Position numbers and translations under genes: made by a program. From a virus (lineage: Duplodnaviria > Caudoviricetes), in IMG/VR virus record IMGVR_UViG_3300037067_027616, positions 160,001 through 224,000 of that record: 64,000 nt of DNA. One strand, given 5' to 3'. The notes below the pieces were generated by a model, which saw only the letters and a program-made list of their open reading frames with translations, was not told where the DNA came from and made no database searches. Each line of letters opens with the position of its first letter. Position 1 is the first letter of the stretch. Positions 13,901 through 50,479 of the stretch are shown piece after piece.

Positions 13901-13985
13901 TGGCGGAGGATGAGAGGGTCGAACTCCCACGACCTTTCAGTCACGTGTGTTCCAGACACGCCACTTACCATTAGTGTAATCCTCC
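13901..13985 (-). tRNA. tRNA-Ser(GGA)
   Basis: Cloverleaf, loop CT-GGA-AC, long variable arm, CCA. Confidence 0.9.
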
Positions 13986-13995
13986 ATTAATTCGG

Positions 13996-14078
13996 CGGCG
14001 GGCAGAGGACTCGAACCCCTACACCCTTTCGGGCGCCTGATCTCGAATCAGGTGCATTACCAATTATGCAAGCCCGCC
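13996..14078 (-). tRNA. tRNA-Ser(CGA)
   Basis: Loop TT-CGA-GA, long variable arm; ends CCG, no encoded CCA. Confidence 0.88.
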
Positions 14079-14329
14079 TTCCAGCATTTTCTTGACCTTG
14101 TTGAGATCCTCTTCAACTTTTGACATGTCATTGGCAACCATGTCAAGTGCATCGATTTCGTTCTCGTTGAAATTTGTGTCAGACTCCACCCGGCTCTCCT
14201 CCACATCAACATATTTGTCTACGAACACCACCAAATTCGAAAAGTCCTCGATGGCACCTTTGAATTTGGATCGCAGTTGGGCCTCGACAAGTAATTTTTC
14301 TATTTCATCTGCCATAGGATCCCACACAA

Positions 14330-14421
14330 TGGTGGAGGGAGCAAGATTTGAACTTGCGGGAGAGTTGCCCCTCCTCTAGTTTTCAAGACTAGCGCGATAA
14401 ACCAGGCTCTGCCATCCCTCC
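14330..14421 (-). tRNA. tRNA-Ser(TGA)
   Basis: Loop CT-TGA-AA, long variable arm, CCA. Confidence 0.92.
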
Positions 14422-14572
14422 TCATTTATGAATCGTTCTTTGCACCATGCACTCGACACAAAACCGTATGGCTCGTATCCTGTGCAGGATGTCCTCGAGC
14501 AGGCGGTCGGCTTCCTCCGCCTTCTTCGAGGCCTCGATGTCTTTGTTCTTTGGCTGTGTGTCTTCCATGAAG

Positions 14573-14815
14573 TCAACCTCCAGCGCCTTTGGAACTCTTG
14601 GTATTTTTGCCCCACTCCACGTATCCATAACACGCGATTGCCAAGAATACTGCAAATAACACGACATTGTACAATTCATTCTTGTAGTATCCTACAGCCA
14701 CGAGTATCACGTTGGCGGCGATGTAGAACATAAAACCGATGCGGTTCCTGCGCGCGTTGAGGAGCGCCCCAATTACCCCGAGAAGACTTCCGATCCACCC
14801 AAACACATCAGTCAT
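14573..14815 (-). CDS. Small PnuC-like (nicotinamide riboside transporter) membrane protein
   Basis: Three hydrophobic segments; N..L and YGY..W pattern. Confidence 0.55.
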   Translation of the reverse strand: MTDVFGWIGSLLGVIGALLNARRNRIGFMFYIAANVILVAVGYYKNELYNVVLFAVFLAIACYGYVEWGKNTKSSKGAGG

Positions 14816-15054
14816 TTCAACGGCCCCCGAAGATGACCCACAGCCAGCACACCAAGGATATTAGGAACGGGTAAAAAAGTGGGAACGTTGCTTTTTTGCC
14901 TTTCATTGCGTCATTCAGTTGCTCTAACTTTCCCCAATTGGTGCTCGTGTAACATACAAAGAGTAACAACCGAAGTATGAAAATAAGACCGAACAGTATA
15001 CCGAGCGACCAAGATAAAGCGTTCAAAAAGGCCACGACTTCCTCCTTGAATAAT

Positions 15055-15138
15055 TGGTGCGCCGAGAGAGCATCGAACTCACACGGGTTTCCCCACTGGC
15101 TCCTAAGACCAGCGCGTCTGCCATTCCGCCACCGGCGC
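15055..15138 (-). tRNA. tRNA-Leu(TAG)
   Basis: Loop CT-TAG-GA, GGCGGAATGGCAGACGC D arm, CCA. Confidence 0.93.
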
Positions 15139-15480
15139 TCAATCAAATACCCCGGGGTCGAATTTTGAATTCTTGTAACTGTAACATGTCAATATTACTT
15201 TTTCGCATGGGTCATATCGCGGTCCGTATTCATGCACGACCACTATGAGATTGCCATATTTGTAATACACTGCGTCCTTGAGATACTTTATGGTTTGCCT
15301 CAAACTCTTTTTGGGGGACACAGGAATCAAATCCCCGCGTAAATAAGCGTTTATAAGTCGTTGCTTGGTCAACACCTCATTGATTTTATCGTCTATGCGT
15401 GTACGATATTGCTTGATCGCATGTGGGGCGACTATTACAAATTTACGTAGCTTCGACAGTTGACGATAGGTGACCATCAT
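15139..15480 (-). CDS. Hypothetical protein
   Basis: ORF coupled to the HPr gene. Confidence 0.55.
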   Translation of the reverse strand: MMVTYRQLSKLRKFVIVAPHAIKQYRTRIDDKINEVLTKQRLINAYLRGDLIPVSPKKSLRQTIKYLKDAVYYKYGNLIVVVHEYGPRYDPCEKVILTCYSYKNSKFDPGVFD

Positions 15481-15749
15481 TCCACCATAAAATTCTCGAG
15501 GATGTCAGCTATTTCTTTGTATGCTTTTTCCTCTTCGGGGCCGCGCACCACAAGACTGACTGTTTTTCCTCCGTCCACCGCGAGCGACAGGAGACTCAAG
15601 ATGCTTTTGGCATCCGCCTTCATGCCGTTCTCCGGGTTCTCAATGGTTATTTCAGTGTTGTCGTACTCCTTGGCCCTTTGACAAATGCACAGCGAAGGTC
15701 TTGCGTGTAGTCCTATCTCGCTGCGTAACCTTACCGTTCCCTTTACCAT
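15477..15749 (-). CDS. ptsH: HPr phosphocarrier protein
   Basis: GLHARP (His15) and ADAKSILSLLSL (Ser46). Confidence 0.9.
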   Translation of the reverse strand: MVKGTVRLRSEIGLHARPSLCICQRAKEYDNTEITIENPENGMKADAKSILSLLSLAVDGGKTVSLVVRGPEEEKAYKEIADILENFMVE

Positions 15750-15765
15750 TTCAACCTTTCTTCCT

Positions 15766-15841
15766 TGGAGCCGATGAAGGGACTCAAACCCCCGACCCCC
15801 GCATTACAGGTGCGGTGCTCTATCAGCTGAGCTACATCGGC
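15766..15841 (-). tRNA. tRNA-Thr(TGT)
   Basis: Loop CC-TGT-AA (C33), T loop TTTGAGT, CCA. Confidence 0.88.
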
Positions 15842-15846
15842 TTATG

Positions 15847-16131
15847 TCAATATTCGTAATGTCCACGATCTTGATCACGCTCTTCTCTATCCCGGCGGCT
15901 CTTCCTCTTCTGCGGGAATTTGTCGAGCATCGCCTTCCTGATTGCATCCTTACGTTTCCGGCGTTTCTGCTCACTCGGTTTCTCGTACGAGCGCCTCTTC
16001 TTCAGTTCTGCGAGGATACCTGCGGACTCGGCGACCCTTTTGAACCTCCTGAGCATCCTCTCGATATTCTCCATACCGCCCTTGGTGTCTACTACTCCGT
16101 ACATTTTTGCTCCTTTGAATGTGTCCTTCAA
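15847..16131 (-). CDS. rpsU: Ribosomal protein bS21
   Basis: ENIERMLRRFKR...GILAELKKRRSYEKPSEQKRRK. Confidence 0.88.
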   Translation of the reverse strand: MKDTFKGAKMYGVVDTKGGMENIERMLRRFKRVAESAGILAELKKRRSYEKPSEQKRRKRKDAIRKAMLDKFPQKRKSRRDREERDQDRGHYEY

Positions 16132-17042
16132 GCCCTGCGCATCAAATCCGATACGAGGTGCTTTACTACTGGTGGTGGAAAACCGTTTCCTATACCCTCG
16201 AGCATTTTCGTCCTCGAAAGTACATTAATATCATATTCGTCACCGAGTCCTTGCAACCTCGCCGCAAGTCTGGGGCCACACATGTGAAGTTCCCCCGAGG
16301 GCATGACCACAACCCCATAAGGAACCCCTCGTTTGTAGTTGCTGACTACCGTACCAGCCACCACGTCAAAACGTAACGGTGGATGTCTCTTGCACCTTTT
16401 CGGGTCGCGAAACCAATACTTTTTCTCGTTGTAACTCATGGGACGCGTCAAAGGTTGCGTGTCCTTTTCAGGAGAATCGTAGAGATATTCCCGGACAAGG
16501 CTGGGTTTTTCCCAAGGTTCCTCCGGGTATGTCACGTTCCACTGTATCTTTTTAGAGCAGAGCATAACAACACGGCGCCTGTTCTGCGGCACACCATAAT
16601 CATAGCAGTTTATTTCTTGGCAGTCTACTGCGTACCCGCGTGCTTTCAAATCATTTATTATGGTACATAAATAGCTTTTAAACCGCGAAAGCCCAAAGCT
16701 GTTCTCGATAAGTACGTGATCCGGGTTGCACCGATCAATTGCCCTGAAGAAATGCGGGAAGGTGTTGCGTGAATCGTCTTCCCCCTTTGTGCCAAATCTG
16801 TTGGCACCTGGGGAAAAAGCCTTGCAGACGGGACCTCCGCTGAGAAGGTCACATTCAGTTATCTCGTATTTGTCGACATCTGCGCATATAGCTACGGGAC
16901 TGAGGTACATTGGTTGGCTGTTGTAGGCTTGCACAAACTTCGGGTCGATCTCGCAAGCCCCGACTACATTGGCCCCTGCCTGTGTCATACCCCAAGAGGA
17001 TAGTCCTACGCCAGAGAAGATTTCGACTACACGCATGCTCAC
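16128..17042 (-). CDS. C5 DNA cytosine methyltransferase
   Basis: EIFSGVG, GGPVCKAFS, IEN, YGVPQNRRRV, ARLQG, IGN. Confidence 0.85.
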   Translation of the reverse strand: MSMRVVEIFSGVGLSSWGMTQAGANVVGACEIDPKFVQAYNSQPMYLSPVAICADVDKYEITECDLLSGGPVCKAFSPGANRFGTKGEDDSRNTFPHFFRAIDRCNPDHVLIENSFGLSRFKSYLCTIINDLKARGYAVDCQEINCYDYGVPQNRRRVVMLCSKKIQWNVTYPEEPWEKPSLVREYLYDSPEKDTQPLTRPMSYNEKKYWFRDPKRCKRHPPLRFDVVAGTVVSNYKRGVPYGVVVMPSGELHMCGPRLAARLQGLGDEYDINVLSRTKMLEGIGNGFPPPVVKHLVSDLMRRA

Positions 17043-17051
17043 CTGTCCATT

Positions 17052-17139
17052 TGGTGCCCGAACCCGGACTTGAACCGGGACGAGGGTTTACCCCCAAGAG
17101 GGTTTAAGCCTCTTGTGTCTTCCATTCCACCACTCGGGC
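17052..17139 (-). tRNA. tRNA-Leu(TAA)
   Basis: Loop CT-TAA-AC, long variable arm, CCA. Confidence 0.92.
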
Positions 17140-17157
17140 AAAACCTGAAACAAAATA

Positions 17158-17772
17158 CTACTTGCCGGCGACGATGTAAACCCCGGGGGTGCCGTATCCT
17201 TCATAATTCTCGGCCTCCCGGATGCTGTACCCTATCCCCCGCATTTCCTCTACGAGGGTCCTTTTTGAGTATCCGCACGTGTGGAATTGCCCCGGGTCCA
17301 CCGGTGGATCCTCAACATCGCCGCATTCCATGTCGGCTTGGTAACCGAAAAGTGTGTATAAAAACCATCGACGCGAATTCGCGTTCAAGTCCCCACGAAG
17401 AAGGACTCCCATTATCATGTCTATGTCCGGCATGCTGAGGAGCAGGGTGCCCCCAGGCTTAAGAACACGGTGCCAATCTTTCAATGCCAACTTTGCTCTT
17501 CGTATCGGGAGATGCTCCAATGAATGAGCCGAAAAAAGTCCGTCTGCCGTGTTGGGTTTCATCGGTAGCTTGTAGATGTCAGCCTTCAACACTGATGGGA
17601 GCCGTGTATATCGATCGATGTTCACAAACCCTTGCAGAATACGCTTTCCGGAGCCAAGATTTAGGTACACCCCCGGGACATCCACCGCCCTTTTAAACAT
17701 GTCAGCCTCAATCGATTTGAGTCTTTCTCGGGCGTCCACATAGGACTTTGGCAAGTTAAAGGGGGTGCCCAT
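17158..17772 (-). CDS. Class I SAM-dependent methyltransferase (type 11)
   Basis: LNLGSG, NID, HSLEHL, RVLKPGG. Confidence 0.85.
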   Translation of the reverse strand: MGTPFNLPKSYVDARERLKSIEADMFKRAVDVPGVYLNLGSGKRILQGFVNIDRYTRLPSVLKADIYKLPMKPNTADGLFSAHSLEHLPIRRAKLALKDWHRVLKPGGTLLLSMPDIDMIMGVLLRGDLNANSRRWFLYTLFGYQADMECGDVEDPPVDPGQFHTCGYSKRTLVEEMRGIGYSIREAENYEGYGTPGVYIVAGK

Positions 17773-17882
17773 ATTGTGAATATACTAACTCGGTGTCCTT
17801 TTGTAAACATCGATCCACCAATAAGTTGTTTATATCCCCTTCCGTTATGCAGGCGGCACACCAGTAACCTGAGGCACGCATC

Positions 17883-18257
17883 ATGGAAGAACAAGAATTA
17901 AAAGAAGTAATCCAAAAGCAACAGGTCGAATCCTGTGATGAGAGGTATGTCCTTGAAAAGGTATATTGGCAACGCACGGTCAAAATGCTTGTCATGATCG
18001 TGTCACTGCTGATCACATTATCAGGAGGCATAATCGCTTGGGGTTTCAAGACTTCCGCAGAGGTTACAAACAACACCCAAGGCAGACGGGAAATCGAACG
18101 CAGGATTAGTGACATCGAATCCTTTTACAGAATTGCCAACGAAAACTACAGCAATGTTGCCAAAAACCAATTGGAAGCCCTACAATACTCACAGAGATTG
18201 AGCAGAAAATTGGACATCCTCATAGAACGGGCCGGGGCAAAATATTTGGAAGAGTAG
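17883..18257 (+). CDS. Single-pass membrane protein with coiled coil
   Basis: Hydrophobic MLVMIVSLLITLSGGIIAW; lone plus-strand gene in the tRNA block. Confidence 0.6.
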   Translation: MEEQELKEVIQKQQVESCDERYVLEKVYWQRTVKMLVMIVSLLITLSGGIIAWGFKTSAEVTNNTQGRREIERRISDIESFYRIANENYSNVAKNQLEALQYSQRLSRKLDILIERAGAKYLEE

Positions 18258-18260
18258 GTG

Positions 18261-18336
18261 TGGTGGAGCCTGAGAGAGTCGAACTCTCGGTCTCCTGCGT
18301 GCAAGGCAGGCGCTTTTCCAATTAAGCTAAGGCCCC
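18261..18336 (-). tRNA. tRNA-Ala(TGC)
   Basis: GGGGCC acceptor with G3:U70, loop CT-TGC-AC, CCA. Confidence 0.93.
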
Positions 18337-18344
18337 ACAATGTT

Positions 18345-18421
18345 TGGAGCCCACGAGTGGATTCAAACCACCGACTTTTTCCTTACCAAGGAAATACTCA
18401 TATCAACTGAGTTACGTGGGC
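18345..18421 (-). tRNA. tRNA-Thr(GGT)
   Basis: Loop TT-GGT-AA, T loop TTTGAAT, CCA. Confidence 0.88.
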
Positions 18422-18728
18422 TTATCTACCGTATTTGATGCTTAACGATGCCGCTCCGGCTACGCACATCAAAAAAAGATCGTATGTCCTGATCGCATAT
18501 GTGGGTATCTTGCGTAGTTTGTGAATCGTATTTTTAAGTTGTTCTTCGTCCAACAGCAGCGGAACTATCGTCTTGTGAACTCCGTCATACACCATAAAAT
18601 GCACAAAACCTGGATACATAGTTCCTTCAGAAGCAACCGTCCAGGCTCCTTCCGTGTGTGCATACTCATACACAATTAATGATTCCTTTGTCTCCATGTG
18701 TGTGGAGAAAAATGAATGTGTTATTCGG

Positions 18729-18804
18729 TGGCAGGGTGAGAGGGCATCGAACCCCCAGCCTCAGGTTTTGGAGACCTGCGCTCTGCCGATTGAGCTATCA
18801 CCCT
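18729..18804 (-). tRNA. tRNA-Trp(CCA)
   Basis: Loop CT-CCA-AA, CCA end. Confidence 0.93.
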
Positions 18805-20212
18805 AAAAGAGATATGAACTGATCGTAATTTTGTTTTGATCCGCCCACGCCCTCATAATTCGTTGCTCTTGAGGAGTAGGCGATCTGTTGCTCATACCAC
18901 GTGCTTGACAGATCTGCCCTTTGGTGAGTTCCATGGTGACCATCCTCCACGAGCCTTCCTTGTCAAACAACCTCAACGACCATATCGAGGATCTTCCCGA
19001 TGAGCAGGCCCATGTGTATGATGCCACGCAATGTTTCATGGCCCGGCCTTCATCGTACAGTTCCTTCGAGGTCAAAAGTTCCTTGATAATCCAAACCCTG
19101 CGGTTCTGCCCAGTTCCTTCCTCGAGCCGGAAGTCAGACACCACGCTGTGACTCCAAGAGGACGCACCTTTTTTAGCCTTTCCAAGTTCTTTGTGCCACC
19201 GTTCAACTTGATCCATCAAGGTATTGGCGTTCCGGCCGTTCATGCTGAAGTTTGGTTGTTCGGGATTTTGAGTAACGATGTTGCCTCGGTCGTCATATTC
19301 ATTGCGTATCTCATATTTAATGTGGCATATGTAATCGATGATCGGACCATATTGATTCGAGTCGAGCATGGGATTTGCAATGAGAAATTTTATAAACGAC
19401 TGCCGGAACTCATCATCAAACCGTTGCATGCGAGTGCCCCGCAAACGGGATGATATCCTCGTGTCCCCGCCGAGGGCAACGACCTGGCCATGTAAGAGGG
19501 CATCTATTACAGAGAAATACCCGGGGGCTTCAAGGAAATGGTGCGCCATCTTTTTCGTCAGCGGGAACGGAAGATTTCTCGCCGTCCGTATGTTGTTGCC
19601 GTTCCCTATGTGTATGTACCACTCTTGATGGAGTTGTTCATCAGCCTCCCAAACGCTGTCCATGAAGGTTGGTATGGGATACTTCGTGAAAAGGTGCCGT
19701 AACAACGATGATATCTGCCGTTGCAAGCTGTGGCTCTTCACCACCCACGTGGTGGGATCCTTTATCCAATACGGGGACCACCTCGCGATTTTTATGAGCA
19801 TCCTGATCGCTTGGGTGTCTTTAAGGATCTTTGACCGGTCATTACCTTTTCCAGACACGGAGTCGACAAGTTTGATTAAAGATCTTTTTGTGTCTTCGTC
19901 TAAAACAGACCTGTGATCAAACAGCGCGTTAGAAACAGAGGAAAATTCACACGATTTAGTTGGGTCTTGCAGGACCCTGTGAATGGCTTCCCGTTCGTTT
20001 CGAGGGGTGTGACTGCTTTTTTCCAAAGCTTTGATAGCCTTGTCTGCTTTGTATATCGAGGCCTCCCGTGCAATTTGCCAAGGGGTTTTATACCACGTGG
20101 CCTCAAACCCTGCTTCCTGGCACCACTCAAGGTACTTCGGCATCTCCAAACCGAAGCTACGAAGTATGACTTGTTCGGCGCTCTCCTTGTTGTACTTTTT
20201 CTGTACGGCCAT
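18803..20212 (-). CDS. PcfJ-like domain protein
   Basis: WH...L..EG..M.HCV.SY...C..G.SSIWSLR...T.E....Q.RG..N. Confidence 0.8.
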   Translation of the reverse strand: MAVQKKYNKESAEQVILRSFGLEMPKYLEWCQEAGFEATWYKTPWQIAREASIYKADKAIKALEKSSHTPRNEREAIHRVLQDPTKSCEFSSVSNALFDHRSVLDEDTKRSLIKLVDSVSGKGNDRSKILKDTQAIRMLIKIARWSPYWIKDPTTWVVKSHSLQRQISSLLRHLFTKYPIPTFMDSVWEADEQLHQEWYIHIGNGNNIRTARNLPFPLTKKMAHHFLEAPGYFSVIDALLHGQVVALGGDTRISSRLRGTRMQRFDDEFRQSFIKFLIANPMLDSNQYGPIIDYICHIKYEIRNEYDDRGNIVTQNPEQPNFSMNGRNANTLMDQVERWHKELGKAKKGASSWSHSVVSDFRLEEGTGQNRRVWIIKELLTSKELYDEGRAMKHCVASYTWACSSGRSSIWSLRLFDKEGSWRMVTMELTKGQICQARGMSNRSPTPQEQRIMRAWADQNKITISSYLF

Positions 20213-20223
20213 AAGGTCACCTT

Positions 20224-21111
20224 CTACAGGATGACGATTCTGACATCAGGTACTCCCGCAGGATCCGCCTCTATGACTGCGGCGATTAGTTTGGAGGTTT
20301 CCACCCACGGGTGTCTCATGAGGTAGTCTTCTCTCATGGTTTCCATCCTCGAGGGGTCGATGACGGCGGCGGACAGATACTGTCCAGGTTGCACGACAAC
20401 GGTTCTGCCGATGGTGGCTGTACGTATTTTTGTCCTCCAGGGGCATTCATGTATGTGTCCGGACAATACCATGTACGGCTGCTTTTCCTCAATCCATTCT
20501 TTGATGGCGTTTGACCCGACCTCGCGGCCATCTATGCACACATCCAACCCGACCAATTTGGGAGGGGAATGTATGGCTATTATCTCGTTCGGCTTCGCCT
20601 TTCTCGACCGCAAATCATCTTCGATGGTGCCTTTTTTTCGGAAGTATTCTTTCACATCTATTATGGGTACCAACCCGTGTTCGGTGTCTTCTGTGGGTAT
20701 CTGTATATACGATTCAGGTTTCCACCCCTTGTGGTCATACTTGCAGGCGGTCTTCAACCCGAACGGATAGTCAGGCACGTACGGGTATCCAGTAAACGTA
20801 AACCCCTCGAAATCGATGGGTTTCTCATCGATGAGATCCCCGCATCTTTCCCGGTAGAGGGGTTTGCGTGTCCACAAGTCATCATTGCCAAACATGGCCA
20901 TGAACTTTATGTCCTTATCTCCGCACTTCTTGATGAACCCCGGCAAGAATTTCTTTATGAATTCCTTCTGCCGCGGTTGCATGGAGTAACCTTTTGGGAG
21001 TATGTCGGCTCCCACGTGAAGGAGTTTTGCTCCTTCAGTTACGCATAAATCGAGAGCCTTTGCGTACTTCCCCTCATCCCCATGTAAATCTGTGGCATAA
21101 ACGAACTTCAT
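20224..21111 (-). CDS. Metallophosphoesterase (calcineurin-like)
   Basis: TDLHG, GAD, GNDD, HSPP, SGHIHE. Confidence 0.88.
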   Translation of the reverse strand: MKFVYATDLHGDEGKYAKALDLCVTEGAKLLHVGADILPKGYSMQPRQKEFIKKFLPGFIKKCGDKDIKFMAMFGNDDLWTRKPLYRERCGDLIDEKPIDFEGFTFTGYPYVPDYPFGLKTACKYDHKGWKPESYIQIPTEDTEHGLVPIIDVKEYFRKKGTIEDDLRSRKAKPNEIIAIHSPPKLVGLDVCIDGREVGSNAIKEWIEEKQPYMVLSGHIHECPWRTKIRTATIGRTVVVQPGQYLSAAVIDPSRMETMREDYLMRHPWVETSKLIAAVIEADPAGVPDVRIVIL

Positions 21112-21137
21112 TCGTCACCCCATTCAAAAGGTAAGAT

Positions 21138-21166
21138 AATATACTATTTTGAATATCTTTTGTCAC
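21138..21166 (-). promoter_or_regulatory. Possible internal promoter within tRNA block 1
   Basis: GTGACA-17-TATATT. Confidence 0.45.
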
Positions 21167-21175
21167 CTTGAATTT

Positions 21176-21254
21176 TGGTAGGATCGGTGAGATTTGAACT
21201 CACGACCAGCTGCTTATAAGGCAGCTGCTCATCACCAGGCTGAGCTACGATCCT
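21176..21254 (-). tRNA. tRNA-Ile(TAT)
   Basis: Loop CT-TAT-AA, CCA. Confidence 0.88.
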
Positions 21255-21303
21255 ACAAACCGGAGTGTGCTGACAATGAAGCATGTCCATACTTTGATAA
21301 TTG

Positions 21304-21376
21304 TGGAGCTGAGGGGGATCGAACCCCTGGCCTCGACATTGCGAACGTCGCGCTCTCCCAGCTGAGCTACAGCCCC
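21304..21376 (-). tRNA. tRNA-Ala(CGC)
   Basis: GGGGCTGTAGCTCAG, loop TT-CGC-AA; no encoded CCA. Confidence 0.92.
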
Positions 21377-21397
21377 GTATTAGATTCTTAAAATTTG

Positions 21398-21694
21398 TCA
21401 TGCGGCCCAAGGACGTATATCAGAAAGATCTTCCTGCCAAGGTCTGCAGTATCTTTTCTCCTGCATAGTCCTTTTGTCTTTGTTCCAACGACTTCTACGT
21501 GGGTTTCCGCAGGAAGAACAAGAACACAATTTGGTCGTGTTCCTTCTCAAGTAACCCCAACGTTCGAGAAGTTTCTTCTTCTGTTCTTCGGTACACCATG
21601 TCCACCGGTATGAACTGGTTTCACCGCGAGCACGTGCGTCACCTTTCCACTTTCCTACGAGGAAGCGTTCCCGGCGATTGCGGGGATGAGGCAT
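21398..21694 (-). CDS. Small basic Arg/Lys-rich protein with CSCxxCGNPR motif
   Basis: Strong SD (TAAGGAGG) inside a hairpin; upstream mini-ORF. Confidence 0.65.
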   Translation of the reverse strand: MPHPRNRRERFLVGKWKGDARARGETSSYRWTWCTEEQKKKLLERWGYLRRNTTKLCSCSSCGNPRRSRWNKDKRTMQEKRYCRPWQEDLSDIRPWAA

Positions 21695-21797
21695 CAGTAA
21701 CCTCCTTATGAGTTAAATACTGATTGCCATCATTTTACCCCTTTGTTGGAAAAGTGATTACACTATCATCTTTTAAAAATGAGTAGATGATTAATTT

Positions 21798-21873
21798 TGG
21801 TGGAGCTGGCGAGGGTCGAACTCACTACCTCCTCGTAGCCAACGAGGCGCTCTCCCAATTGAGCTACAGCCCC
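21798..21873 (-). tRNA. tRNA-Ala(GGC)
   Basis: Loop TT-GGC-TA, CCA. Confidence 0.92.
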
Positions 21874-22020
21874 ACATTGATAATATACTATCAAAAACAT
21901 TGAAATGGACTGCGGTCTCCGGTTCGCCTATGGGAGCCACCTGTGCTTGATAACGGGAGAGGTGGGCGCCCACGTCACCGCCATTCCGGTTCACACGATA
22001 CCCGCAGTCCATTTTTGTTT

Positions 22021-22098
22021 TGGAGCCAACGACTGGACTCGAACCAGCAACCCCCGCATTACGAATGCGGTGCTCTACCAAATTGAAGCTACGTTGGC
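22021..22098 (-). tRNA. tRNA-Thr(CGT)
   Basis: Loop TT-CGT-AA, CCA. Confidence 0.92.
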
Positions 22099-22099
22099 A

Positions 22100-22176
22100 T
22101 GGTGGGCGACAGAGGGCTCGAACCTCTGATCTCCGCGATGTGGACGCGGCGCCTTAGCCGACTGGGCCAGTCGCCC
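22100..22176 (-). tRNA. tRNA-Val(CAC)
   Basis: Loop TC-CAC-AT (C33), CCA. Confidence 0.88.
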
Positions 22177-22186
22177 CTGAAGATTG

Positions 22187-22275
22187 TGGTGGGAGGTGAT
22201 GGAGTCGAACCACCCGAGCCCGTTAAAGGCAACAGCTCTACAGGCTGTCCCGCTACCCCTACGGTATAACCTCCC
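22187..22275 (-). tRNA. tRNA-Tyr(GTA)
   Basis: Loop CT-GTA-GA, long variable arm, CCA. Confidence 0.92.
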
Positions 22276-22286
22276 ATAAATAAAAA

Positions 22287-22492
22287 GGGGACACTCCCGT
22301 AATTGGACTTCTGTTCTATGGCCACATTTGACTGAGCCCGAGACCCGTCCATTGTAGCCCTGCTCACCGGCTAGGACTGTTTTCGGTTGCTACCGAGGAA
22401 GTGCGGGCGACCTTGCGATCTCCTTCCACGAGCAGTGTAGGTCCAATTTCCTCACCGGACTGACGTCCGGCGCGTGACCTCGGAGTGTCCCC
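22287..22492 (-). ncRNA. rnpB: Minimal RNase P RNA-like gene (~206 nt)
   Basis: P1 GGGGACACTCC/GGAGTGTCCCC; P2 GGTCAC/GTGGCC; GAGGAAATTGGAC and AGAACAGAAGTCCAATTAC form the P4 pseudoknot; GAGCAG. Confidence 0.8.
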
Positions 22493-22497
22493 GGGAT

Positions 22498-22583
22498 TGG
22501 TGCTCAAGGAGAGACTTGAACTCTCACGAAGTTTCCCTCGGTGGGTTTTGAGTCCACTGGGTCTGCCATTCCCCCACTTGAGC
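22498..22583 (-). tRNA. tRNA-Leu(CAA)
   Basis: Loop CT-CAA-AA, CCA. Confidence 0.92.
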
Positions 22584-22627
22584 ATGTTCATAATTTCACG
22601 AATGTTCACGTAAACGTGAACAAAAAT

Positions 22628-22711
22628 TGGTGCGGCTGACTGGATTTGAACCAGCAAGGCGTTTGCCATAACGTTCTTAGCGTTACGTGTATGCCATTCC
22701 ACCACAGCCGC
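22628..22711 (-). tRNA. tRNA-Leu(AAG)
   Basis: Loop CT-AAG-AA, Leu-type D arm and variable arm, CCA. Confidence 0.88.
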
Positions 22712-22718
22712 ATATTTA

Positions 22719-22874
22719 TAAGATCCGCGTCCGAGTCGATGGGGCGTCTTCTTTCGAAGACTGATTAACCATCAGTTGCTCCACCCTGGAGCATACTCCC
22801 CATAAGTGGGGAGTCGTGGGATCGAACCACGCATACACGGAATGTACGCCCTCTCATGGAGGACGCGGATCTTA
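22719..22874 (-). ncRNA. Circularly permuted tRNA-like RNA 1 (YrlA/Y-RNA-like), GTT loop
   Basis: Order is T arm, acceptor 3' strand, short linker, acceptor 5' strand, D arm, anticodon arm, inside a long terminal stem. Confidence 0.8.
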
Positions 22875-22882
22875 ATTTCAGT

Positions 22883-23042
22883 AGGACACCGTCCGAGTCG
22901 ATGGAGCGTCATCGTCAGATGATGGTTTAGAGACCATTGCGTTTACCATTTCGCCATCCCGGCATTGGTGCCGGGGCCAGGATTTGAACCTGGAGTTGCC
23001 TTTCGGCTTAAATGTACGCTTCGTCCTGGAGGACGGTGTCCT
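22883..23042 (-). ncRNA. Circularly permuted tRNA-like RNA 2 (Leu-like body, CTCTAA loop)
   Basis: CCAGG-TTCAAAT-CCTGG-CCCCGGC-ACCA-AT-GCCGGGATGGCGAAATGGTAAACGC; same conserved flanks as units 1 and 3. Confidence 0.8.
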
Positions 23043-23048
23043 TTTTCT

Positions 23049-23134
23049 TGGTGCGGATGAAAGGATTTGAACCTTCATGGGTGTTAGCCCACTAGCGCCT
23101 GAAACTAGCGTGTCTGCCTTTCCACCACATCCGC
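23049..23134 (-). tRNA. tRNA-Leu(CAG)
   Basis: Loop TT-CAG-GC, CCA. Confidence 0.92.
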
Positions 23135-23144
23135 GCATCTTAAT

Positions 23145-23293
23145 GGGATCCCCGCCTGAGTCGACGGAGCAAGTGACGCATTTTGACTGTTTTACTGACA
23201 GTTGCCTTACCATTTGGCTATTCCCCCATATAAGGGGGAATCAGGAGTTGAACCTGAAGAGTGTATGCTTTCATCATGGAAGGCGAGGATCCC
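23145..23293 (-). ncRNA. Circularly permuted tRNA-like RNA 3 (GTA loop)
   Basis: TCAGG-TTCAACT-CCTGA-TTCCCCC-ttatat-GGGGGAATAGCCAAATGGTAAGGCA-ACTGT-CAGTAAA-ACAGT; conserved flanks. Confidence 0.8.
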
Positions 23294-23302
23294 TAACTTG
23301 TT

Positions 23303-23380
23303 TGGGGTGACCGGCGAGACTCGAACTCGTAACCGCTGGATTCACAATCCAGTGCTCTGACCAATTGAGCTACGGCCACC
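23303..23380 (-). tRNA. tRNA-His(GTG)
   Basis: G-1:C73, loop TT-GTG-AA, CCA. Confidence 0.93.
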
Positions 23381-23392
23381 ATAATTCTCCTT

Positions 23393-23466
23393 TGGAGCTG
23401 GCGCCCAGATTTGAACTGAGGATGAAGGTTTTGCGGACCTTTGCCTTTCCACTTGGCTACGCCAGC
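23393..23466 (-). tRNA. tRNA-Cys(GCA)
   Basis: Loop CC-GCA-AA (C33), U73, CCA. Confidence 0.9.
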
Positions 23467-23624
23467 ATAAGGTAACAAGGAGGAGGGAACGGGCCGGGGA
23501 GCACCGCCCCCACCCCTTGATGCTATTGACATGACTGCGTCCCGCATCAGCGGGCGCATTCATCATGTGCTTCATGCAAACAATCCGTATTTTCAATGAA
23601 CCAGAAACCACAAACAACTCCGTA

Positions 23625-23671
23625 AAAACTTAAAGGCCCCCGTCCGAATCTCTCCGGGCGGGGGCCTTCTG
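23625..23671 (-). terminator. Attenuator terminator of tRNA block 1
   Basis: AAGGCCCCCGCCCGGA-gaga-TTCGGACGGGGGCCTTT followed by AAGTTTTT. Confidence 0.85.
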
Positions 23672-23690
23672 GTTTTCGCTATGGGCTTGT

Positions 23691-23813
23691 TCAGCCCTTC
23701 AGAAGTCCCCCGCCGTAACTATCCCACGTGAGGTGCAAATACGACAGTCGGCATGCGGCTATCGCTTGCACGTTTGTGGATGATCCGGTTAGTAAGGACT
23801 CTCTGCGTTTCAT
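23691..23813 (-). CDS. Leader peptide 1 (MKRRESLLTGSSTNVQAIAACRLSYLHLTWDSYGGGLLKG)
   Basis: AGGAG SD; lies between promoter and terminator; 3' end holds the antiterminator strand; contains the exact codon for all 20 downstream tRNAs. Confidence 0.88.
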   Translation of the reverse strand: MKRRESLLTGSSTNVQAIAACRLSYLHLTWDSYGGGLLKG

Positions 23814-23835
23814 TTGAAAACTCCTGATGGCTCCA

Positions 23836-23864
23836 AATATACCACACAAAAATGGTTTTGTCAA
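23836..23864 (-). promoter_or_regulatory. Promoter of tRNA block 1
   Basis: TTGACA-17-TATATT with extended -10 TG. Confidence 0.88.
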
Positions 23865-24104
23865 CCTGTTTCTTCCAAAGGCCTTTGGGACAGCGGGAAC
23901 AGCCTCTCATCCACCTGCTTTACGAGGCTCCAAAGTGATGGACACTCCGGCCCATCACCGTAGGTGCTTATGTACTGCCGGATGTACGCACGGGCGTTTT
24001 CAAGTTGCTCGCGGGTCATGCACCCTGTGGTCGTGGACACCGCCTTGGTGAACGCTGTTTCCTTCTCGCTCAACTGCTCGGTGACATCGTCCATAGGGTC
24101 TCCT

Positions 24105-24557
24105 TTACCAGGTGACTACGAACGGCCCGAAATGGAAACCTTTGCACCATTTACAGGCGTACCCATCTCCTTTGAAAGGCACCGGCCGCGTGACAAGGAA
24201 AAGGCTGAAACGCCAGTCGAAAGGCACGATCTGCAGGCCGATGTCATCGACTTTGTCATACAGCTTCCACCACCATTTCTTTTCGCGCTCCGTGCGCTCC
24301 GCCTCGTGCTTTTCGTACTCCGGGTCAGGCTCATACACTTTTTCCTCATCCGCCTCAAGCCCGAACACTACTTTCAATACGTCATCCCGCTCTTCATCCG
24401 GAAAATCAAAACAAATACCCGCGCTGTCATCATCACCTTTTTTCAGCAATTTCCATATGCAACAACCGACACCGTCCGGGTAGCGTATTTTCTCACCCCG
24501 ATACTCGTTTGATCTCACCATGGTCGTCCCCCTTTTGTATCGGGATAAACTAATCAA
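24105..24557 (-). CDS. Hypothetical protein
   Basis: ORF in the co-directional run. Confidence 0.5.
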   Translation of the reverse strand: MISLSRYKRGTTMVRSNEYRGEKIRYPDGVGCCIWKLLKKGDDDSAGICFDFPDEERDDVLKVVFGLEADEEKVYEPDPEYEKHEAERTEREKKWWWKLYDKVDDIGLQIVPFDWRFSLFLVTRPVPFKGDGYACKWCKGFHFGPFVVTW

Positions 24558-24561
24558 GACA

Positions 24562-26084: not shown

Positions 26085-26177
26085 TGGCGGAGGGTGAAGG
26101 ATTTGAACCTTCGGTAGAGCTTTTGGCCCTACAGACGTTTAGCAAACGCCCGCTTTAGACCTCTCAGCCAACCCTCC
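26085..26177 (-). tRNA. tRNA-Ser(GCT)
   Basis: Loop TT-GCT-AA, long variable arm, CCA. Confidence 0.93.
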
Positions 26178-26180
26178 GTT

Positions 26181-26269
26181 TGGTAGGTCCGGGTGGAATT
26201 GAACCACCGTTTACCTTTCGGCCCCTTGCGTATCAGACAAGTGCTCTAACCGGGCTGAGCTACGGACCT
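26181..26269 (-). tRNA. tRNA-Ile(GAT) with an unusual long variable arm
   Basis: Loop CT-GAT-AC; GCC-GAAA-GGT extra arm; CCA. Confidence 0.85.
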
Positions 26270-26276
26270 GCATATA

Positions 26277-26369
26277 TGGTAGCGGGGGCAAGATTCGAAC
26301 TTGCGACCTCCGTTAGGAAGTTCTGGCTTATGAGGCCAGTGACTTAGACCTGCTCTAGTCTACCCCGCA
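26277..26369 (-). tRNA. tRNA-Met(CAT), initiator-like acceptor, long variable arm
   Basis: T1:T72 mismatch, GCGGGG stem, loop CT-CAT-AA, CCA. Confidence 0.82.
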
Positions 26370-26375
26370 ATGTAT

Positions 26376-28436: not shown

Positions 28437-28516
28437 ACGATATAACACGTGGCCCTTGTAGCCACGTGTTTATGTAGAGTCTGTAAATCGATCTTCCATC
28501 TCATATCTCCTAAACG

Positions 28517-28553
28517 AAAAAACCCCACCGATCCTTTTGGGCCCGGTGGGGTT
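28517..28553 (-). terminator. Attenuator terminator of tRNA block 2
   Basis: AACCCCACCGG...TCGGTGGGG followed by TTTTTT. Confidence 0.88.
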
Positions 28554-28578
28554 CAGAATGCTAACGAGTCCACCGGGC

Positions 28579-28650
28579 TTACATGGCAATATCCATGCTA
28601 TCAAAGTCGATAGCGCTGAAGATAATGCTGATGCCGATGGTAGTACGCAT
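28579..28650 (-). CDS. Leader peptide 2 (MRTTIGISIIFSAIDFDSMDIAM)
   Basis: AAGGAG upstream; rich in ATC/AGC/TTC/GAC/ATG; antiterminator directly follows the TAA. Confidence 0.88.
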   Translation of the reverse strand: MRTTIGISIIFSAIDFDSMDIAM

Positions 28651-28683
28651 TGAAAGTATTGCTCCTTTTACGACGTTGGGCAT

Positions 28684-28712
28684 AATATACCACGGATTTA
28701 GAAGATTGTCAA
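28684..28712 (-). promoter_or_regulatory. Promoter of tRNA block 2
   Basis: TTGACA-17-TATATT with extended TG. Confidence 0.88.
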
Positions 28713-39777: not shown

Positions 39778-39801
39778 TTGTGTCCTGTCAAAGAACAAAA
39801 G

Positions 39802-39838
39802 AAAAACCCCGGCGATCCTTTCGGTCCGCCGGGGTCTT
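39802..39838 (-). terminator. Attenuator terminator of tRNA block 3
   Basis: ACCCCGGCGGACC-GAAA-GGATCGCCGGGGT followed by TTTT. Confidence 0.88.
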
Positions 39839-39859
39839 GTGTTCTGGTCTTCAGTTAAT

Positions 39860-39940
39860 TCAGAGCGTGCGACCGAACCCCAACGGACTTTTGTTCCGCG
39901 GTTGCTGATTGGGGTTTGGGTTCTGAACGAACAAAAACAT
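39860..39940 (-). CDS. Leader peptide 3 (MFLFVQNPNPNQQPRNKSPLGFGRTL)
   Basis: AGGAG SD; CAG/CAA/AAC/CCA/CCC/CCG cluster; contains the antiterminator strand. Confidence 0.88.
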   Translation of the reverse strand: MFLFVQNPNPNQQPRNKSPLGFGRTL

Positions 39941-39962
39941 GGTTTATTCTCCTGTGGTGTTA

Positions 39963-39991
39963 AATATACACCTATCGGGACAAATTGTCAA
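39963..39991 (-). promoter_or_regulatory. Promoter of tRNA block 3
   Basis: TTGACA-17-TATATT. Confidence 0.88.
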
Positions 39992-45910: not shown

Positions 45911-45953
45911 CAAAACAAGAAGGCCCCCGGTGACTTTGTCATCCGGGGGCCTT
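45911..45953 (-). terminator. Attenuator terminator of tRNA block 4
   Basis: AAGGCCCCCGG-ATGAC-aaa-GTCA-CCGGGGGCCTT followed by CTTGTTTT. Confidence 0.85.
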
Positions 45954-45980
45954 AAACCTATTGTGAAGAGATTGAATAGG

Positions 45981-46046
45981 CTACACGACCCCCGATGGCG
46001 TCACCCGGCGCTTGGATACGACTCGTTTTGCCTTCAGTGAGAACAT
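45981..46046 (-). CDS. Leader peptide 4 (MFSLKAKRVVSKRRVTPSGVV)
   Basis: AAG/AAA/GTC/GTA/CGG/CGC/CGA cluster; contains the antiterminator strand. Confidence 0.85.
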   Translation of the reverse strand: MFSLKAKRVVSKRRVTPSGVV

Positions 46047-46071
46047 GGTGCCTTTTTCCCTTCAAAAACAT

Positions 46072-46100
46072 AATATACCACAACCTGACAGGTTTGTCAA
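46072..46100 (-). promoter_or_regulatory. Promoter of tRNA block 4
   Basis: TTGACA-17-TATATT with extended TG. Confidence 0.88.
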
Positions 46101-50277: not shown

Positions 50278-50324
50278 TTACATTCAAAAGTGCTTTTGTC
50301 GTCAGCAGACTGTCAAAGATCAAC

Positions 50325-50359
50325 GAAAAAACCCCGCCAGGCTTGGCCTGACGGGGTTT
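50325..50359 (-). terminator. Attenuator terminator of tRNA block 5
   Basis: AAACCCCGTCAGGC-caa-GCCTGGCGGGG followed by TTTTTT. Confidence 0.88.
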
Positions 50360-50381
50360 GTGTATAAGTACAATACTCCCG

Positions 50382-50441
50382 TCAGGTGGGTATTCTTCCC
50401 TCCCTACCTTCTTCAGCTATTCTGACGGTTGCGTTTATCAT
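50382..50441 (-). CDS. Leader peptide 5 (MINATVRIAEEGREGRIPT), near-leaderless
   Basis: ATG about 10 nt from the -10 box; ATA/AGA/AGG/GAA/GAG/GGA/GGT cluster; antiterminator overlaps the TGA. Confidence 0.85.
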   Translation of the reverse strand: MINATVRIAEEGREGRIPT

Positions 50442-50450
50442 AGGATATTA

Positions 50451-50479
50451 AATATAACACAAAAAAACGGTGTTGTCAA
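50451..50479 (-). promoter_or_regulatory. Promoter of tRNA block 5
   Basis: TTGACA-17-TATATT with extended TG. Confidence 0.88.

What the first reader, a model, noticed from the sequence alone, without database searches (positions are those of the whole stretch)
23625..23864. Attenuator 1: a 40-codon leader holds the exact codon for all 20 tRNAs of a 10-kb block
Leader 23691-23813 contains TCC, TTA, CTA, ACC, TCA, ACA, GTG, GCG, ATA, GCC, GCA, TGC, CTG, TCG, TTG, CAC, ACG, TGG, TAC and CTT. These are the Watson-Crick cognates of Ser GGA/TGA/CGA, Leu TAA/TAG/CAG/CAA/AAG, Thr GGT/TGT/CGT, Val CAC, Ala CGC/GGC/TGC, Ile TAT, Cys, His, Trp and Tyr at 13901-23466. Most occur once, like a checklist. 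The antiterminator GGCGGGGGACTTCTG (23700-23714) pairs 14/15 with the terminator arm CAGAAGGCCCCCGCC (23657-23671). The block also contains the RNase P RNA, permuted tRNA mimics, bS21 and HPr.
Basis: partly seen in the sequence, partly recalled or inferred. Interest (0 to 1): 0.93.

Follow-up and report, generated by a model that had tools for sequence, protein, structure and literature searches.

The report
Codon-checklist attenuator gating phage tRNA genes
A 467-kb phage places a 40-codon mini-gene and a switchable transcription stop in front of 20 of its tRNA genes, and the mini-gene holds one codon for each of those tRNAs, so the phage probably makes these tRNAs only when ribosomes read those codons slowly; I found no paper describing such control of tRNA genes.

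Summary
The minus-strand ORF 23813-23691 holds, in frame, the Watson-Crick codon of all 20 tRNAs encoded downstream (13901-23466). The chance of this is about 4e-10. Of 933,220 40-codon windows in the genome, only those at this locus reach 19-20.

The ORF sits in full attenuator anatomy: a consensus sigma-70 promoter, a Shine-Dalgarno sequence, an antiterminator in its last codons, a U-tailed terminator, then the tRNAs. Four more units in the window gate the other tRNA blocks, each with codons matched to its own block. The match holds down to synonymous-codon choice (21 of 22).

Seven relatives keep the E leader. Their codon inventories cover 71 of the 72 tRNAs seen downstream, and the antiterminator pairing is kept through lineage-specific changes. 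Matched leaders also occur in distant phages: LR745208.1, the cultured Tunturi_5, and the unrelated phiCbK.

Best reading: ribosome-mediated attenuation that makes tRNA transcription respond to decoding speed. Translation and conditional read-through are inferred, not shown.

Caveats: two of the 20 exact codons lie where a stall would block the switch, internal promoters exist, and the RNase P match is below threshold.

This scan has noted the same design before on other phage DNA. My literature searches found no published description.

The parts
23836..23864 (-). Promoter of unit E: -35 TTGACA (23864-23859), 17-nt spacer, extended -10 TGgTATATT (23844-23836). The transcription start is inferred near 23829.
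   Evidence: The full pattern occurs 9 times in the window (up to 2 mismatches), against 0.5 expected by chance.
23821..23825 (-). Shine-Dalgarno AGGAG, 7 nt before the leader ATG.
   Evidence: All seven relatives' E leaders also have a GGAGG/AGGA-type site.
23691..23813 (-). Leader ORF E: 40 sense codons plus TGA. Codons 6-30 hold the Watson-Crick codon of 18 of the 20 downstream tRNAs. TAC (codon 33) and CTT (codon 37) complete the list.
23794..23805 (-). Segment 1 (codons 3-7), predicted to pair with segment 2 when the leader is not being translated. The role as a protector helix is inferred.
   Evidence: Centroid and truncated folds. At equilibrium 2:3 outcompetes it.
23733..23771 (-). Central hairpin inside the ORF (codons 15-27). 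It could act as a pause hairpin. Its function is not tested.
23699..23715 (-). Segment 2, the antiterminator arm, formed by codons 33/34-38 of the leader.
   Evidence: The duplex with segment 3 is -29.9 kcal/mol. It is masked by a ribosome at codons 32 to the stop.
23656..23672 (-). Segment 3: the partner of segment 2 and also the 5' arm of the terminator.
23622..23668 (-). Intrinsic terminator: hairpin 23668-23633 (-28.4 kcal/mol) plus a U-rich tail to about 23622.
23467..23621 (-). Conserved structured spacer between the terminator and tRNA-Cys. Function unknown.
   Evidence: three hairpins, and 6 pairs with changes on both sides among 3 sequences.
13901..23466 (-). Regulated block E: 20 tRNA genes (Cys, His, Leu x5, Tyr, Val-CAC, Thr x3, Ala x3, Ile-TAT, Trp, Ser x3). 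They are interspersed with an RNase P-like RNA and genes for bS21, HPr, methyltransferases, a phosphoesterase and a PcfJ-like protein.
28511..28712 (-). Unit D: promoter 28712-28684, leader 28650-28579 (23 codons rich in Ile ATC/ATT, Ser AGC, Asp, Phe and Met), segment 2 28579-28569, terminator 28554-28520. It gates Phe, Asp, Met x2, Ile-GAT and Ser-GCT (28436-26085).
   Evidence: 16 of 22 codons belong to its own block, P 5e-8.
39794..39991 (-). Unit C: promoter 39991-39963, leader 39940-39860 (Asn/Pro/Gln core), segment 2 39889-39871, terminator 39838-39803. It gates Asn, Pro x3 and Gln x2 (39777-38170).
45911..46100 (-). Unit B: promoter 46100-46072, leader 46046-45981 (Lys/Val/Arg-CGN core), segment 2 45998-45977, terminator 45953-45920. 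It gates Lys x2, Val-TAC/GAC and Arg-CCG/ACG (45909-42352).
50320..50479 (-). Unit A: promoter 50479-50451, leader 50441-50382 (Glu/Gly/Arg-AGR core; no Shine-Dalgarno site, ATG 9 nt after the -10), segment 2 50387-50369, terminator 50359-50329. It gates Glu x2, Met, Arg-TCT/CCT and Gly x3 (50277-47483).

Best explanation
Unit E is a ribosome-mediated (leader-peptide) transcription attenuator that controls tRNA genes.

Proposed mechanism:
- Host RNA polymerase starts at the consensus promoter, and a ribosome loads on the leader.
- If every codon of the 25-codon sensing stretch (codons 6-30) is decoded quickly, the ribosome reaches the last codons or the stop. There it covers segment 2 (23715-23699). 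Segment 3 is then free to form the terminator hairpin with segment 4, and transcription ends near 23622.
- If any tRNA that reads one of these codons is scarce or uncharged, the ribosome lags. Segment 2 pairs with segment 3 as soon as segment 3 is made, the terminator cannot form, and polymerase runs on into the 20 tRNA genes.
- Because the leader holds about one codon per tRNA species, it sums the waiting times for all 20. The product tRNAs then speed decoding and close a negative feedback loop.
- The whole 47-tRNA array is divided into five such units, each sensing only its own tRNAs.

What is shown by sequence: the anatomy, the codon match, its conservation, and the alternative pairings.

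What is inferred: translation of the leader, kinetic coupling, conditional read-through, and the physiological trigger. The trigger may be decline or cleavage of host tRNAs during infection.
For: 1. Codon match.
- 20 of 20 Watson-Crick codons are in frame, against 9 and 7 in the other frames.
- P is 4.4e-10, and the locus is the unique genome-wide maximum.

2. Anatomy.
- Promoter, Shine-Dalgarno site, ORF, antiterminator, U-tailed terminator and tRNAs follow in order, and the scan predicts no promoter between the terminator and the first tRNA.

3. Footprint model.
- The antiterminator probability is 0.9 with a ribosome at codons 1-30, 0.00-0.01 at codons 34-40, and 0.18-0.34 at codons 32-33 and at the stop.

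4. Five paralogous units in the window.
- The coverage matrix is diagonal. Own-block coverage is 7/8, 6/6, 6/6, 5/5 and 20/20 tRNA species. Off-diagonal values are far lower.
- All five have a segment near the stop that is complementary to the terminator's 5' arm, at -20 to -30 kcal/mol.

5. Isoacceptor-level matching.
- For amino acids whose tRNAs are split between blocks (Arg AGR against CGN, Ser AGY against TCN, Ile ATY against ATA, Val), 21 of 22 synonymous codon choices match the leader's own block. A plain amino-acid sensor would not need this.

6. Conservation.
- Leaders A-C are kept in a relative with 69% TerL identity. Their codon cores are identical although the tRNA genes themselves are only about 65-70% identical.
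- Eight E leaders are available (window, L110, L111, L010, L013, L108, L109, L112). All have a Shine-Dalgarno site, an intact ORF of 37-43 codons and a terminator.
- Counting the window, 91 of 92 tRNAs seen downstream have a decodable codon in the leader.
- 14-20 of the 20 canonical exact codons are kept, although the N-terminal halves have diverged.

7. Covariation.
- L010 lacks tRNA-Ile-TAT and its leader lacks ATA. The window and L109 have both.
- The distal part of the 2:3 helix differs between lineages yet stays complementary. Own duplexes average -27.5 kcal/mol and cross-lineage duplexes -22.9.

8. The same logic with differently composed blocks in distant phages.
- LR745208.1: for example, a 9-codon leader with four His, one Cys and one Tyr codon lies before Tyr/Cys/His tRNAs, and a leader with five different Leu codons lies before five Leu tRNAs.
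- The cultured Tunturiibacter phage Tunturi_5: three units with U-tailed terminators.
- The unrelated Caulobacter phage phiCbK.
Against: - There are no expression, 3'-end or ribosome data.
- Classical attenuators use runs of regulatory codons. Here most appear once, so sensitivity to partial depletion of one tRNA may be low.
- At equilibrium the model forms the antiterminator even with no ribosome. The untranslated state and the basal level therefore depend on folding kinetics that I cannot compute.
- TAC and CTT lie where a stall would favour termination.
- Promoter-like sites inside block E, at 21166-21138 and 17807-17779, could feed distal tRNAs independently.
- There are exceptions to the match. 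Thr-GGT is uncovered in L109. L110 has ATA, but no Ile-TAT was seen on its partial contig. Gly-CCC is uncovered in leader A.
- Several LR745208.1 units lack a clear U-tailed terminator.
Confidence: 0.8

Rival explanations
1. The units sense amino-acid supply through charged tRNA, as classical attenuators do, rather than the supply of the tRNA molecules themselves. The downstream tRNAs would then simply be co-regulated with starvation.
For: The read-out of any leader-peptide attenuator is aminoacyl-tRNA availability, so starvation would also trigger it. Leaders B-D look like multivalent amino-acid leaders.
Against: Synonymous codons are partitioned between leaders according to which isoacceptor gene lies downstream, in 21 of 22 cases. 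Making more tRNA does not relieve amino-acid starvation. No biosynthetic genes lie in the blocks.
Confidence: 0.08
2. The promoter-ORF-terminator units are stand-alone small genes for micropeptides or small RNAs. The tRNAs would be made by constitutive partial read-through or from other promoters. The codon match would then serve something else, for example a test transcript that titrates or checks tRNAs.
For: The terminators are strong (-22 to -28 kcal/mol). Internal promoter-like sites exist. Nothing shows conditional read-through.
Against: The peptide sequences are poorly conserved outside the codon core, while the codon inventory is kept. A segment overlapping the end of each ORF is complementary to the terminator arm in all five units and in the relatives. 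The scan predicts no promoter between terminator E and the first tRNA.
Confidence: 0.07
3. The RNA senses tRNAs directly without translation, in a T-box-like way. The in-frame codons would act as specifier triplets that bind anticodons.
For: The triplets are exact Watson-Crick complements of the anticodons.
Against: No T-box or other known leader family was hit in Rfam, even at E-value thresholds. The triplets are in one frame, bounded by a Shine-Dalgarno site with ATG and a stop. Relatives replace them with wobble codons such as TGT, CAT and TAT. Twenty specifier sites in 120 nt is sterically implausible (inference).
Confidence: 0.03
4. The match is a chance coincidence of a diverse short ORF with the tRNA list.
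For: None beyond the fact that short ORFs abound.
Against: P is 4.4e-10. The locus is the unique genome-wide maximum. There are four paralogous units and conservation in several relatives.
Confidence: 0.01

Closest known systems
Leader-peptide attenuators of enterobacterial amino-acid operons (trpL, hisL, leuL, pheL, and the multivalent thrL and ilvL leaders), from established knowledge
   Same: A promoter is followed by a short translated leader enriched in regulatory codons. Alternative 2:3 antiterminator and 3:4 terminator hairpins follow. A ribosome that reaches the stop masks segment 2. The ilv and thr leaders already sense more than one amino acid.
   Different: The regulated genes are tRNA genes, not biosynthetic enzymes, so the sensed molecule is itself the product. 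Codons are matched at isoacceptor level. Unit E lists about 20 different codons, mostly once each, instead of runs of one or a few. The units are phage-encoded and arrayed five times to partition a full tRNA set. No Rfam leader family matches.
pheST (pheM leader) attenuator of E. coli phenylalanyl-tRNA synthetase, from established knowledge
   Same: Leader-peptide attenuation is applied to a component of the translation machinery, in response to the decoding of its own codons.
   Different: It controls a synthetase, senses a single amino acid and is cellular. It does not feed back on tRNA abundance.
T-box riboswitches (Rfam RF00230)
   Same: A transcription terminator/antiterminator switch reports the state of specific tRNAs through codon-anticodon recognition.
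   Different: A T-box binds uncharged tRNA directly, using Stem I, a specifier loop and the T-box sequence, with no translation. None of these features or an Rfam hit is present here.
Codon-matched leaders before tRNA clusters in other phages, noted earlier in this scan (unpublished AI notes) and partly re-checked here
   Same: Caulobacter phage phiCbK has short ORFs that cover 10 of 10 and 9 of 9 downstream tRNAs, each followed by a U-tailed terminator. Tunturi_5 and LR745208.1 show the same logic.
   Different: Those phages have different block composition, leader sequences and promoters. Unit E here, with 20 tRNAs, is the largest inventory I examined.

Membership tests
Leader-peptide (ribosome-mediated) transcription attenuator | A short ORF with translation start signals lies directly after a promoter and before the regulated genes. 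| tested here: met
   Promoter 23864-23836, AGGAG, ATG 23813, 40 codons. Shine-Dalgarno sites are present in all 8 E leaders.
Leader-peptide (ribosome-mediated) transcription attenuator | The leader is enriched in codons whose decoding reports the regulated pathway. | tested here: met
   20 of 20 cognate codons, P 4.4e-10. The leader-by-block matrix is diagonal.
Leader-peptide (ribosome-mediated) transcription attenuator | An intrinsic terminator lies between the leader and the regulated genes. | tested here: met
   Hairpin 23668-23633, -28.4 kcal/mol, with a U-rich tail.
Leader-peptide (ribosome-mediated) transcription attenuator | A mutually exclusive antiterminator exists whose 5' arm is masked by a ribosome at the end of the leader. 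| tested here: met
   The 2:3 duplex is -29.9 kcal/mol. The footprint model gives P 0.9 at codons 1-30, 0.00-0.01 at codons 34-40, and 0.18-0.34 at codons 32-33 and at the stop. The pairing is kept in 8 lineages.
Leader-peptide (ribosome-mediated) transcription attenuator | A 1:2 protector or pause structure gives termination when the leader is not translated. | tested here: inconclusive
   A 1:2 helix is predicted, but at equilibrium 2:3 wins even without a ribosome. The kinetics are unknown.
Leader-peptide (ribosome-mediated) transcription attenuator | The leader is translated, and read-through rises when the cognate charged tRNA is limiting. | not testable with these tools
   No RNA or ribosome data were available.
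Leader-peptide (ribosome-mediated) transcription attenuator | The regulated genes encode amino-acid biosynthesis enzymes or a synthetase, as in all described members known to me. | tested here: not met
   The downstream genes are 20 tRNAs plus bS21, HPr, an RNase P-like RNA and others. I therefore file this as a new variant, not as a member of a described family.
T-box riboswitch | Stem I with a specifier loop, plus the conserved T-box sequence that pairs with the tRNA acceptor end. | tested here: not met
   There is no RF00230 hit at gathering or E-value thresholds across 13000-29000 and 35000-51000.

The most novel reading that the evidence does not exclude
Codon-inventory attenuators may be a widespread, undescribed class of phage regulators. 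Each tRNA operon would carry a translated 'checklist' of the codons its tRNAs read. The phage would thereby measure, codon by codon, the decoding capacity of the infected cell. It would switch on exactly the tRNA block that is failing. This would serve as homeostasis while host tRNAs decay, and as an inducible answer to host anticodon-nuclease defences. Unit E, with 20 tRNA species sensed by one leader, would be the most multivalent attenuator known.
Probability: 0.5. Interest if true: 0.93.

Novelty: new variant of a known kind. Interest (0 to 1): 0.88.

Why it matters
- How phages regulate their tRNA genes is essentially unknown. Current work asks why phages carry tRNAs at all: codon usage, compensation for decaying host tRNAs, or escape from tRNA-cleaving defences (PMC11025619, PMC11464382, PMC11555353).
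- A sensor whose input is the decoding speed of exactly the codons read by the downstream tRNAs would give direct product feedback on tRNA genes. I did not find this described for any organism.
- It would make the open question testable. Which tRNA shortages a phage expects can be read from its leaders. The partition of a full tRNA set into five separately sensed blocks predicts which tRNAs fail together.
- A cultured relative with the same design exists, Tunturi_5 on Tunturiibacter psychrotolerans, as does the model phage phiCbK. Experiments are therefore feasible.
- The leaders are also compact, natural parts for building codon-specific translation-speed reporters.

Tried and rejected
There are therefore no expression data.
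- Close relatives through neighbouring proteins in IMG/VR. The NMNAT-like and PcfJ-like queries found nothing. The 40-aa leader is too short for the search for related loci.
- The single metagenome scan, run with an alignment of NMNAT-like proteins, used generic NadD motifs. It returned 80 loci at about 30-37% identity, and none held two or more tRNA genes.
ENA and JGI metagenome contigs (L010, L017) cannot be extended.
- Contigs for P0001 and P0029 had no retrievable DNA.
- More distant NMNAT homologues (P0006, P0009) do not lie in tRNA arrays.
- A column-wise compensatory-change count for the 2:3 helix was abandoned, because MAFFT misaligns the G-run between lineages. I used own-versus-cross duplex energies instead. 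These give only moderate support: the L109 arm pairs as well with the window's partner.
- The 99-nt tRNA in L013 (8977-9075) has a 35-nt insert in the anticodon loop, and its anticodon (CAT or TGG) could not be settled. Its apparent match to CCA or ATA in that leader is not counted.
- My automatic unit finder mis-called or missed some units. Those rows were replaced by manual inspection.
- Rejected idea: that the leader's stop codons match the suppressor tRNAs. This is seen only in L009 unit C.

Full report
CONTEXT

The window is bases 160001-224000 of a single 466,729-bp IMG/VR virus record, rated 98% complete by CheckV. The genome has 49 tRNA genes and a tmRNA. Forty-seven of the tRNAs lie in the window, all on the minus strand between 50277 and 13901. 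Together they cover every sense-codon family and include an amber suppressor. The large terminase places the phage in a clade of huge soil and freshwater phages. Its relatives include IMG/VR contigs at 56-69% identity, the 485-kb uncultured phage LR745208.1 (34%) and the cultured Tunturiibacter phage Tunturi_5 (29%).

THE OBSERVATION

On the minus strand, an ORF runs from ATG 23813 to TGA 23693-23691 and has 40 sense codons. The Watson-Crick complement of each anticodon occurs in frame 0 of the ORF, whereas the other two frames hold 9 and 7.

With this genome's codon usage, 39 random codons hold on average about 8.5 of the 20. The probability of holding all 20 is 4.4e-10, or 1.2e-8 with uniform codons. 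With wobble decoding allowed it is 5.5e-5. As a look-elsewhere control I slid a 40-codon window through all six frames of the whole genome, giving 933,220 windows. Only windows at this locus reach 19 or 20, and the best elsewhere is 18.

ANATOMY

Immediately upstream lies a consensus sigma-70 promoter with an extended -10 (TTGACA, 17 nt, TGnTATATT; 23864-23836). AGGAG lies 7 nt before the ATG. Downstream of the stop lies a 36-nt G+C-rich hairpin (23668-23633, -28.4 kcal/mol) with a U-rich tail. The last codons of the ORF (23715-23699) are complementary to 23672-23656, the 5' arm of that hairpin. The pairing is 14 of 15, as stated, with a duplex energy of -29.9 kcal/mol. The scan predicts no promoter between the terminator and tRNA-Cys. 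The region folds much better than shuffled sequence, z -5.4.

FOOTPRINT MODEL

I folded the transcript as it exists before the 3' arm of the terminator is made, masking 27 nt around the A site for each ribosome position.
- With the A site at codons 1-30, the antiterminator forms with probability about 0.9.
- At codon 31 the probability is 0.73.
- At codons 34-40 it is 0.00-0.01. At codons 32-33 and at the stop it is 0.18-0.34.

A ribosome that lags therefore permits read-through, and a ribosome that finishes enforces termination. This is the classical logic.

Eighteen of the 20 exact codons lie at codons 6-30. TAC (codon 33) and CTT (codon 37) lie in the zone where a stall would block the antiterminator. 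TAT (codon 25) and CTC (codon 28) can be read by the same two tRNAs, by G:U wobble and by inosine if A34 is modified.

One weakness remains. At equilibrium the antiterminator also forms without any ribosome, so the untranslated state depends on kinetics. A 1:2 helix with codons 3-7 is predicted but is weaker than 2:3.

NOT A SINGLE CASE

The promoter pattern occurs 9 times in the window (up to 2 mismatches), against 0.5 expected. Five of these sites on the minus strand are followed by a short ORF, a terminator and a tRNA block:
- Unit A (leader 50441-50382) precedes Glu x2, Met, Arg-TCT/CCT and Gly x3.
- Unit B (46046-45981) precedes Lys x2, Val-TAC/GAC and Arg-CCG/ACG.
- Unit C (39940-39860) precedes Asn, Pro x3 and Gln x2.
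- Unit D (28650-28579) precedes Phe, Asp, Met x2, Ile-GAT and Ser-GCT.
- Unit E is the finding itself.

The matrix of tRNA species of block X that find a decodable codon in leader Y is sharply diagonal. Own-block values are 7/8, 6/6, 6/6, 5/5 and 20/20. Own-block codon fractions are 0.44-0.73, against mostly 0.2 or less elsewhere.

The match is at isoacceptor level, not amino-acid level:
- Leader A uses only AGR for Arg, and leader B only CGN.
- Leader D uses only AGC for Ser and ATY for Ile.
- Leader E uses TCN, ATA and GTG.

In all, 21 of 22 such choices fit the leader's own block. Every unit has a segment at or near its stop that is complementary to the terminator's 5' arm.

RELATIVES

A contig whose terminase is 69% identical carries the start of the array with blocks A-C in the same order. 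Its leaders keep the codon cores, in part identical codon for codon, while the flanks and the tRNA genes themselves have diverged to about 65-70% identity.

Through homologues of two proteins just upstream of unit E, I recovered seven further E units: L010, L013, L108, L109, L110, L111 and L112.
- All have the promoter, a Shine-Dalgarno site, an intact ORF of 37-43 codons and the terminator.
- The N-terminal halves of the peptides differ widely, but the codon inventory is kept. Fourteen to 20 of the 20 canonical exact codons are present, and 19-20 with wobble.
- Of the 92 tRNAs visible downstream on these contigs and the window, 91 find a decodable codon in their own leader.
- Relatives often use TGT, CAT and TAT where this phage uses the exact codon. 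The conserved rule is 'decodable by the block', not 'Watson-Crick'.

Covariation:
- L010 lacks both tRNA-Ile-TAT and ATA, while the window and L109 have both.
- L110 has ATA without a visible Ile-TAT on its partial contig, which is an exception.
- L013 is unresolved because of an odd insert-bearing tRNA.
- The part of the antiterminator next to the G-run differs between four lineages, yet complementarity is kept. Own duplexes are -20 to -31 kcal/mol with a mean of -27.5, against -22.9 for cross-lineage pairs. The support is moderate because the shared G/C run dominates.
- Unit D's terminator shows an A-U to G-C compensatory change in L013.

DISTANT AND UNRELATED PHAGES

In LR745208.1 the tRNAs are grouped differently, and the leaders follow suit:
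- A 9-codon ORF with four His, one Cys and one Tyr codon precedes Tyr/Cys/His.
- A leader with three kinds of Thr codon precedes three Thr tRNAs.
- A leader with five different Leu codons precedes five Leu tRNAs.
- Arg/Gly-rich and Glu/Asp-rich leaders precede those blocks.
- Some units there lack a clear U-tailed terminator, and two clusters show no convincing leader.

Tunturi_5 has three large clusters. Each lies behind a matched leader (14/32, 22/37 and 29/49 own-block codons) and a U-tailed terminator. The paper describing that phage lists 43 tRNAs but does not mention leaders or attenuation (PMC11924767).

Notes from this scan report the same design in phiCbK-like and other phages. I checked phiCbK myself. 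Two clusters lie behind ORFs that cover 10/10 and 9/9 of their tRNAs, each followed by a strong terminator.

COMPARISON WITH WHAT IS KNOWN

The mechanism is that of the trp, his, leu, thr and ilv leader-peptide attenuators. The nearest functional analogue is the pheST leader, which controls a synthetase (established knowledge).

The differences are these:
- The target is tRNA genes, so the sensed species is the product.
- The matching is at isoacceptor level.
- One leader holds an inventory of up to 20 different codons, mostly single.
- A complete tRNA set is partitioned among five sensors.

It is not a T-box, and no Rfam leader family matches.

Nine full-text searches gave no description of attenuation of tRNA genes, in phages or elsewhere. 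Neither of the two papers on phage tRNAs that I searched for these terms mentions it. The library lacks most subscription journals, so absence is not proof.

VERDICT

I rate the attenuator reading at about 0.8. The main gap is the lack of any expression evidence. I class it as a new variant of a known kind, of high interest. The same design has been noted before in this scan on other phage DNA.

Noticed in passing
window 22288-22491 (-): A 204-nt RNA between tRNA-Leu-CAA and tRNA-Tyr matches the archaeal RNase P model RF00373 over its full length, but below threshold (54.8 bits against a gathering score of 84, E 3.6e-13). It may be a minimal phage-encoded RNase P RNA inside the tRNA array.
   Followed up: partly
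window 15847-16131 (-), 15477-15749 (-), 26376-26834 (-): The array carries genes for ribosomal protein bS21 (PF01165), HPr (PF00381) and ribosomal protein bL12 (PF00542 and PF16320). The same genes are syntenic in relatives L010, L109 and L112.
   Followed up: partly
window 35861-35937 (-); L009 19323-19398: An amber-suppressor tRNA (anticodon CTA) lies at the far end of block C. The 69%-TerL relative has an ochre suppressor (TTA) in the same region. I did not test whether either phage recodes a stop codon. No leader holds a matching in-frame stop.
   Followed up: no
window 49249-49277 (-) and tRNA-Met 49153-49227; L009 6435-6463: One tRNA with anticodon CAT inside block A has its own promoter-like site directly upstream and no leader. 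The site is conserved in the relative. This tRNA may escape attenuation.
   Followed up: partly
window 23467-23621 (-); L010 3290-3433; L013 5306-5449: The spacer between terminator E and tRNA-Cys is conserved and folds into three hairpins with some compensatory changes. A TTGACAGT-like motif recurs just after several terminators. Function unknown.
   Followed up: partly
window 39687-39777, 26277-26369, 26181-26269 (-); L013 8977-9075: Several tRNA genes are unusually long (89-99 nt). The L013 one has a 35-nt insert in the anticodon loop, which may be an intron or an insertion.
   Followed up: partly
window 50441-50451 (-) versus L009 5260-5279: Leader A starts 9 nt after the -10 box with no Shine-Dalgarno site, so it is probably a leaderless mRNA. 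Its homologue in the relative has GGAGGAG and a 20-nt 5' UTR.
   Followed up: no
window 24562-25224 (-): An NMN/NaMN adenylyltransferase-like gene (PF01467) lies just upstream of unit E. With two small conserved ORFs (24105-24557 and 23861-24094) it forms a syntenic marker for the E attenuator in relatives.
   Followed up: yes
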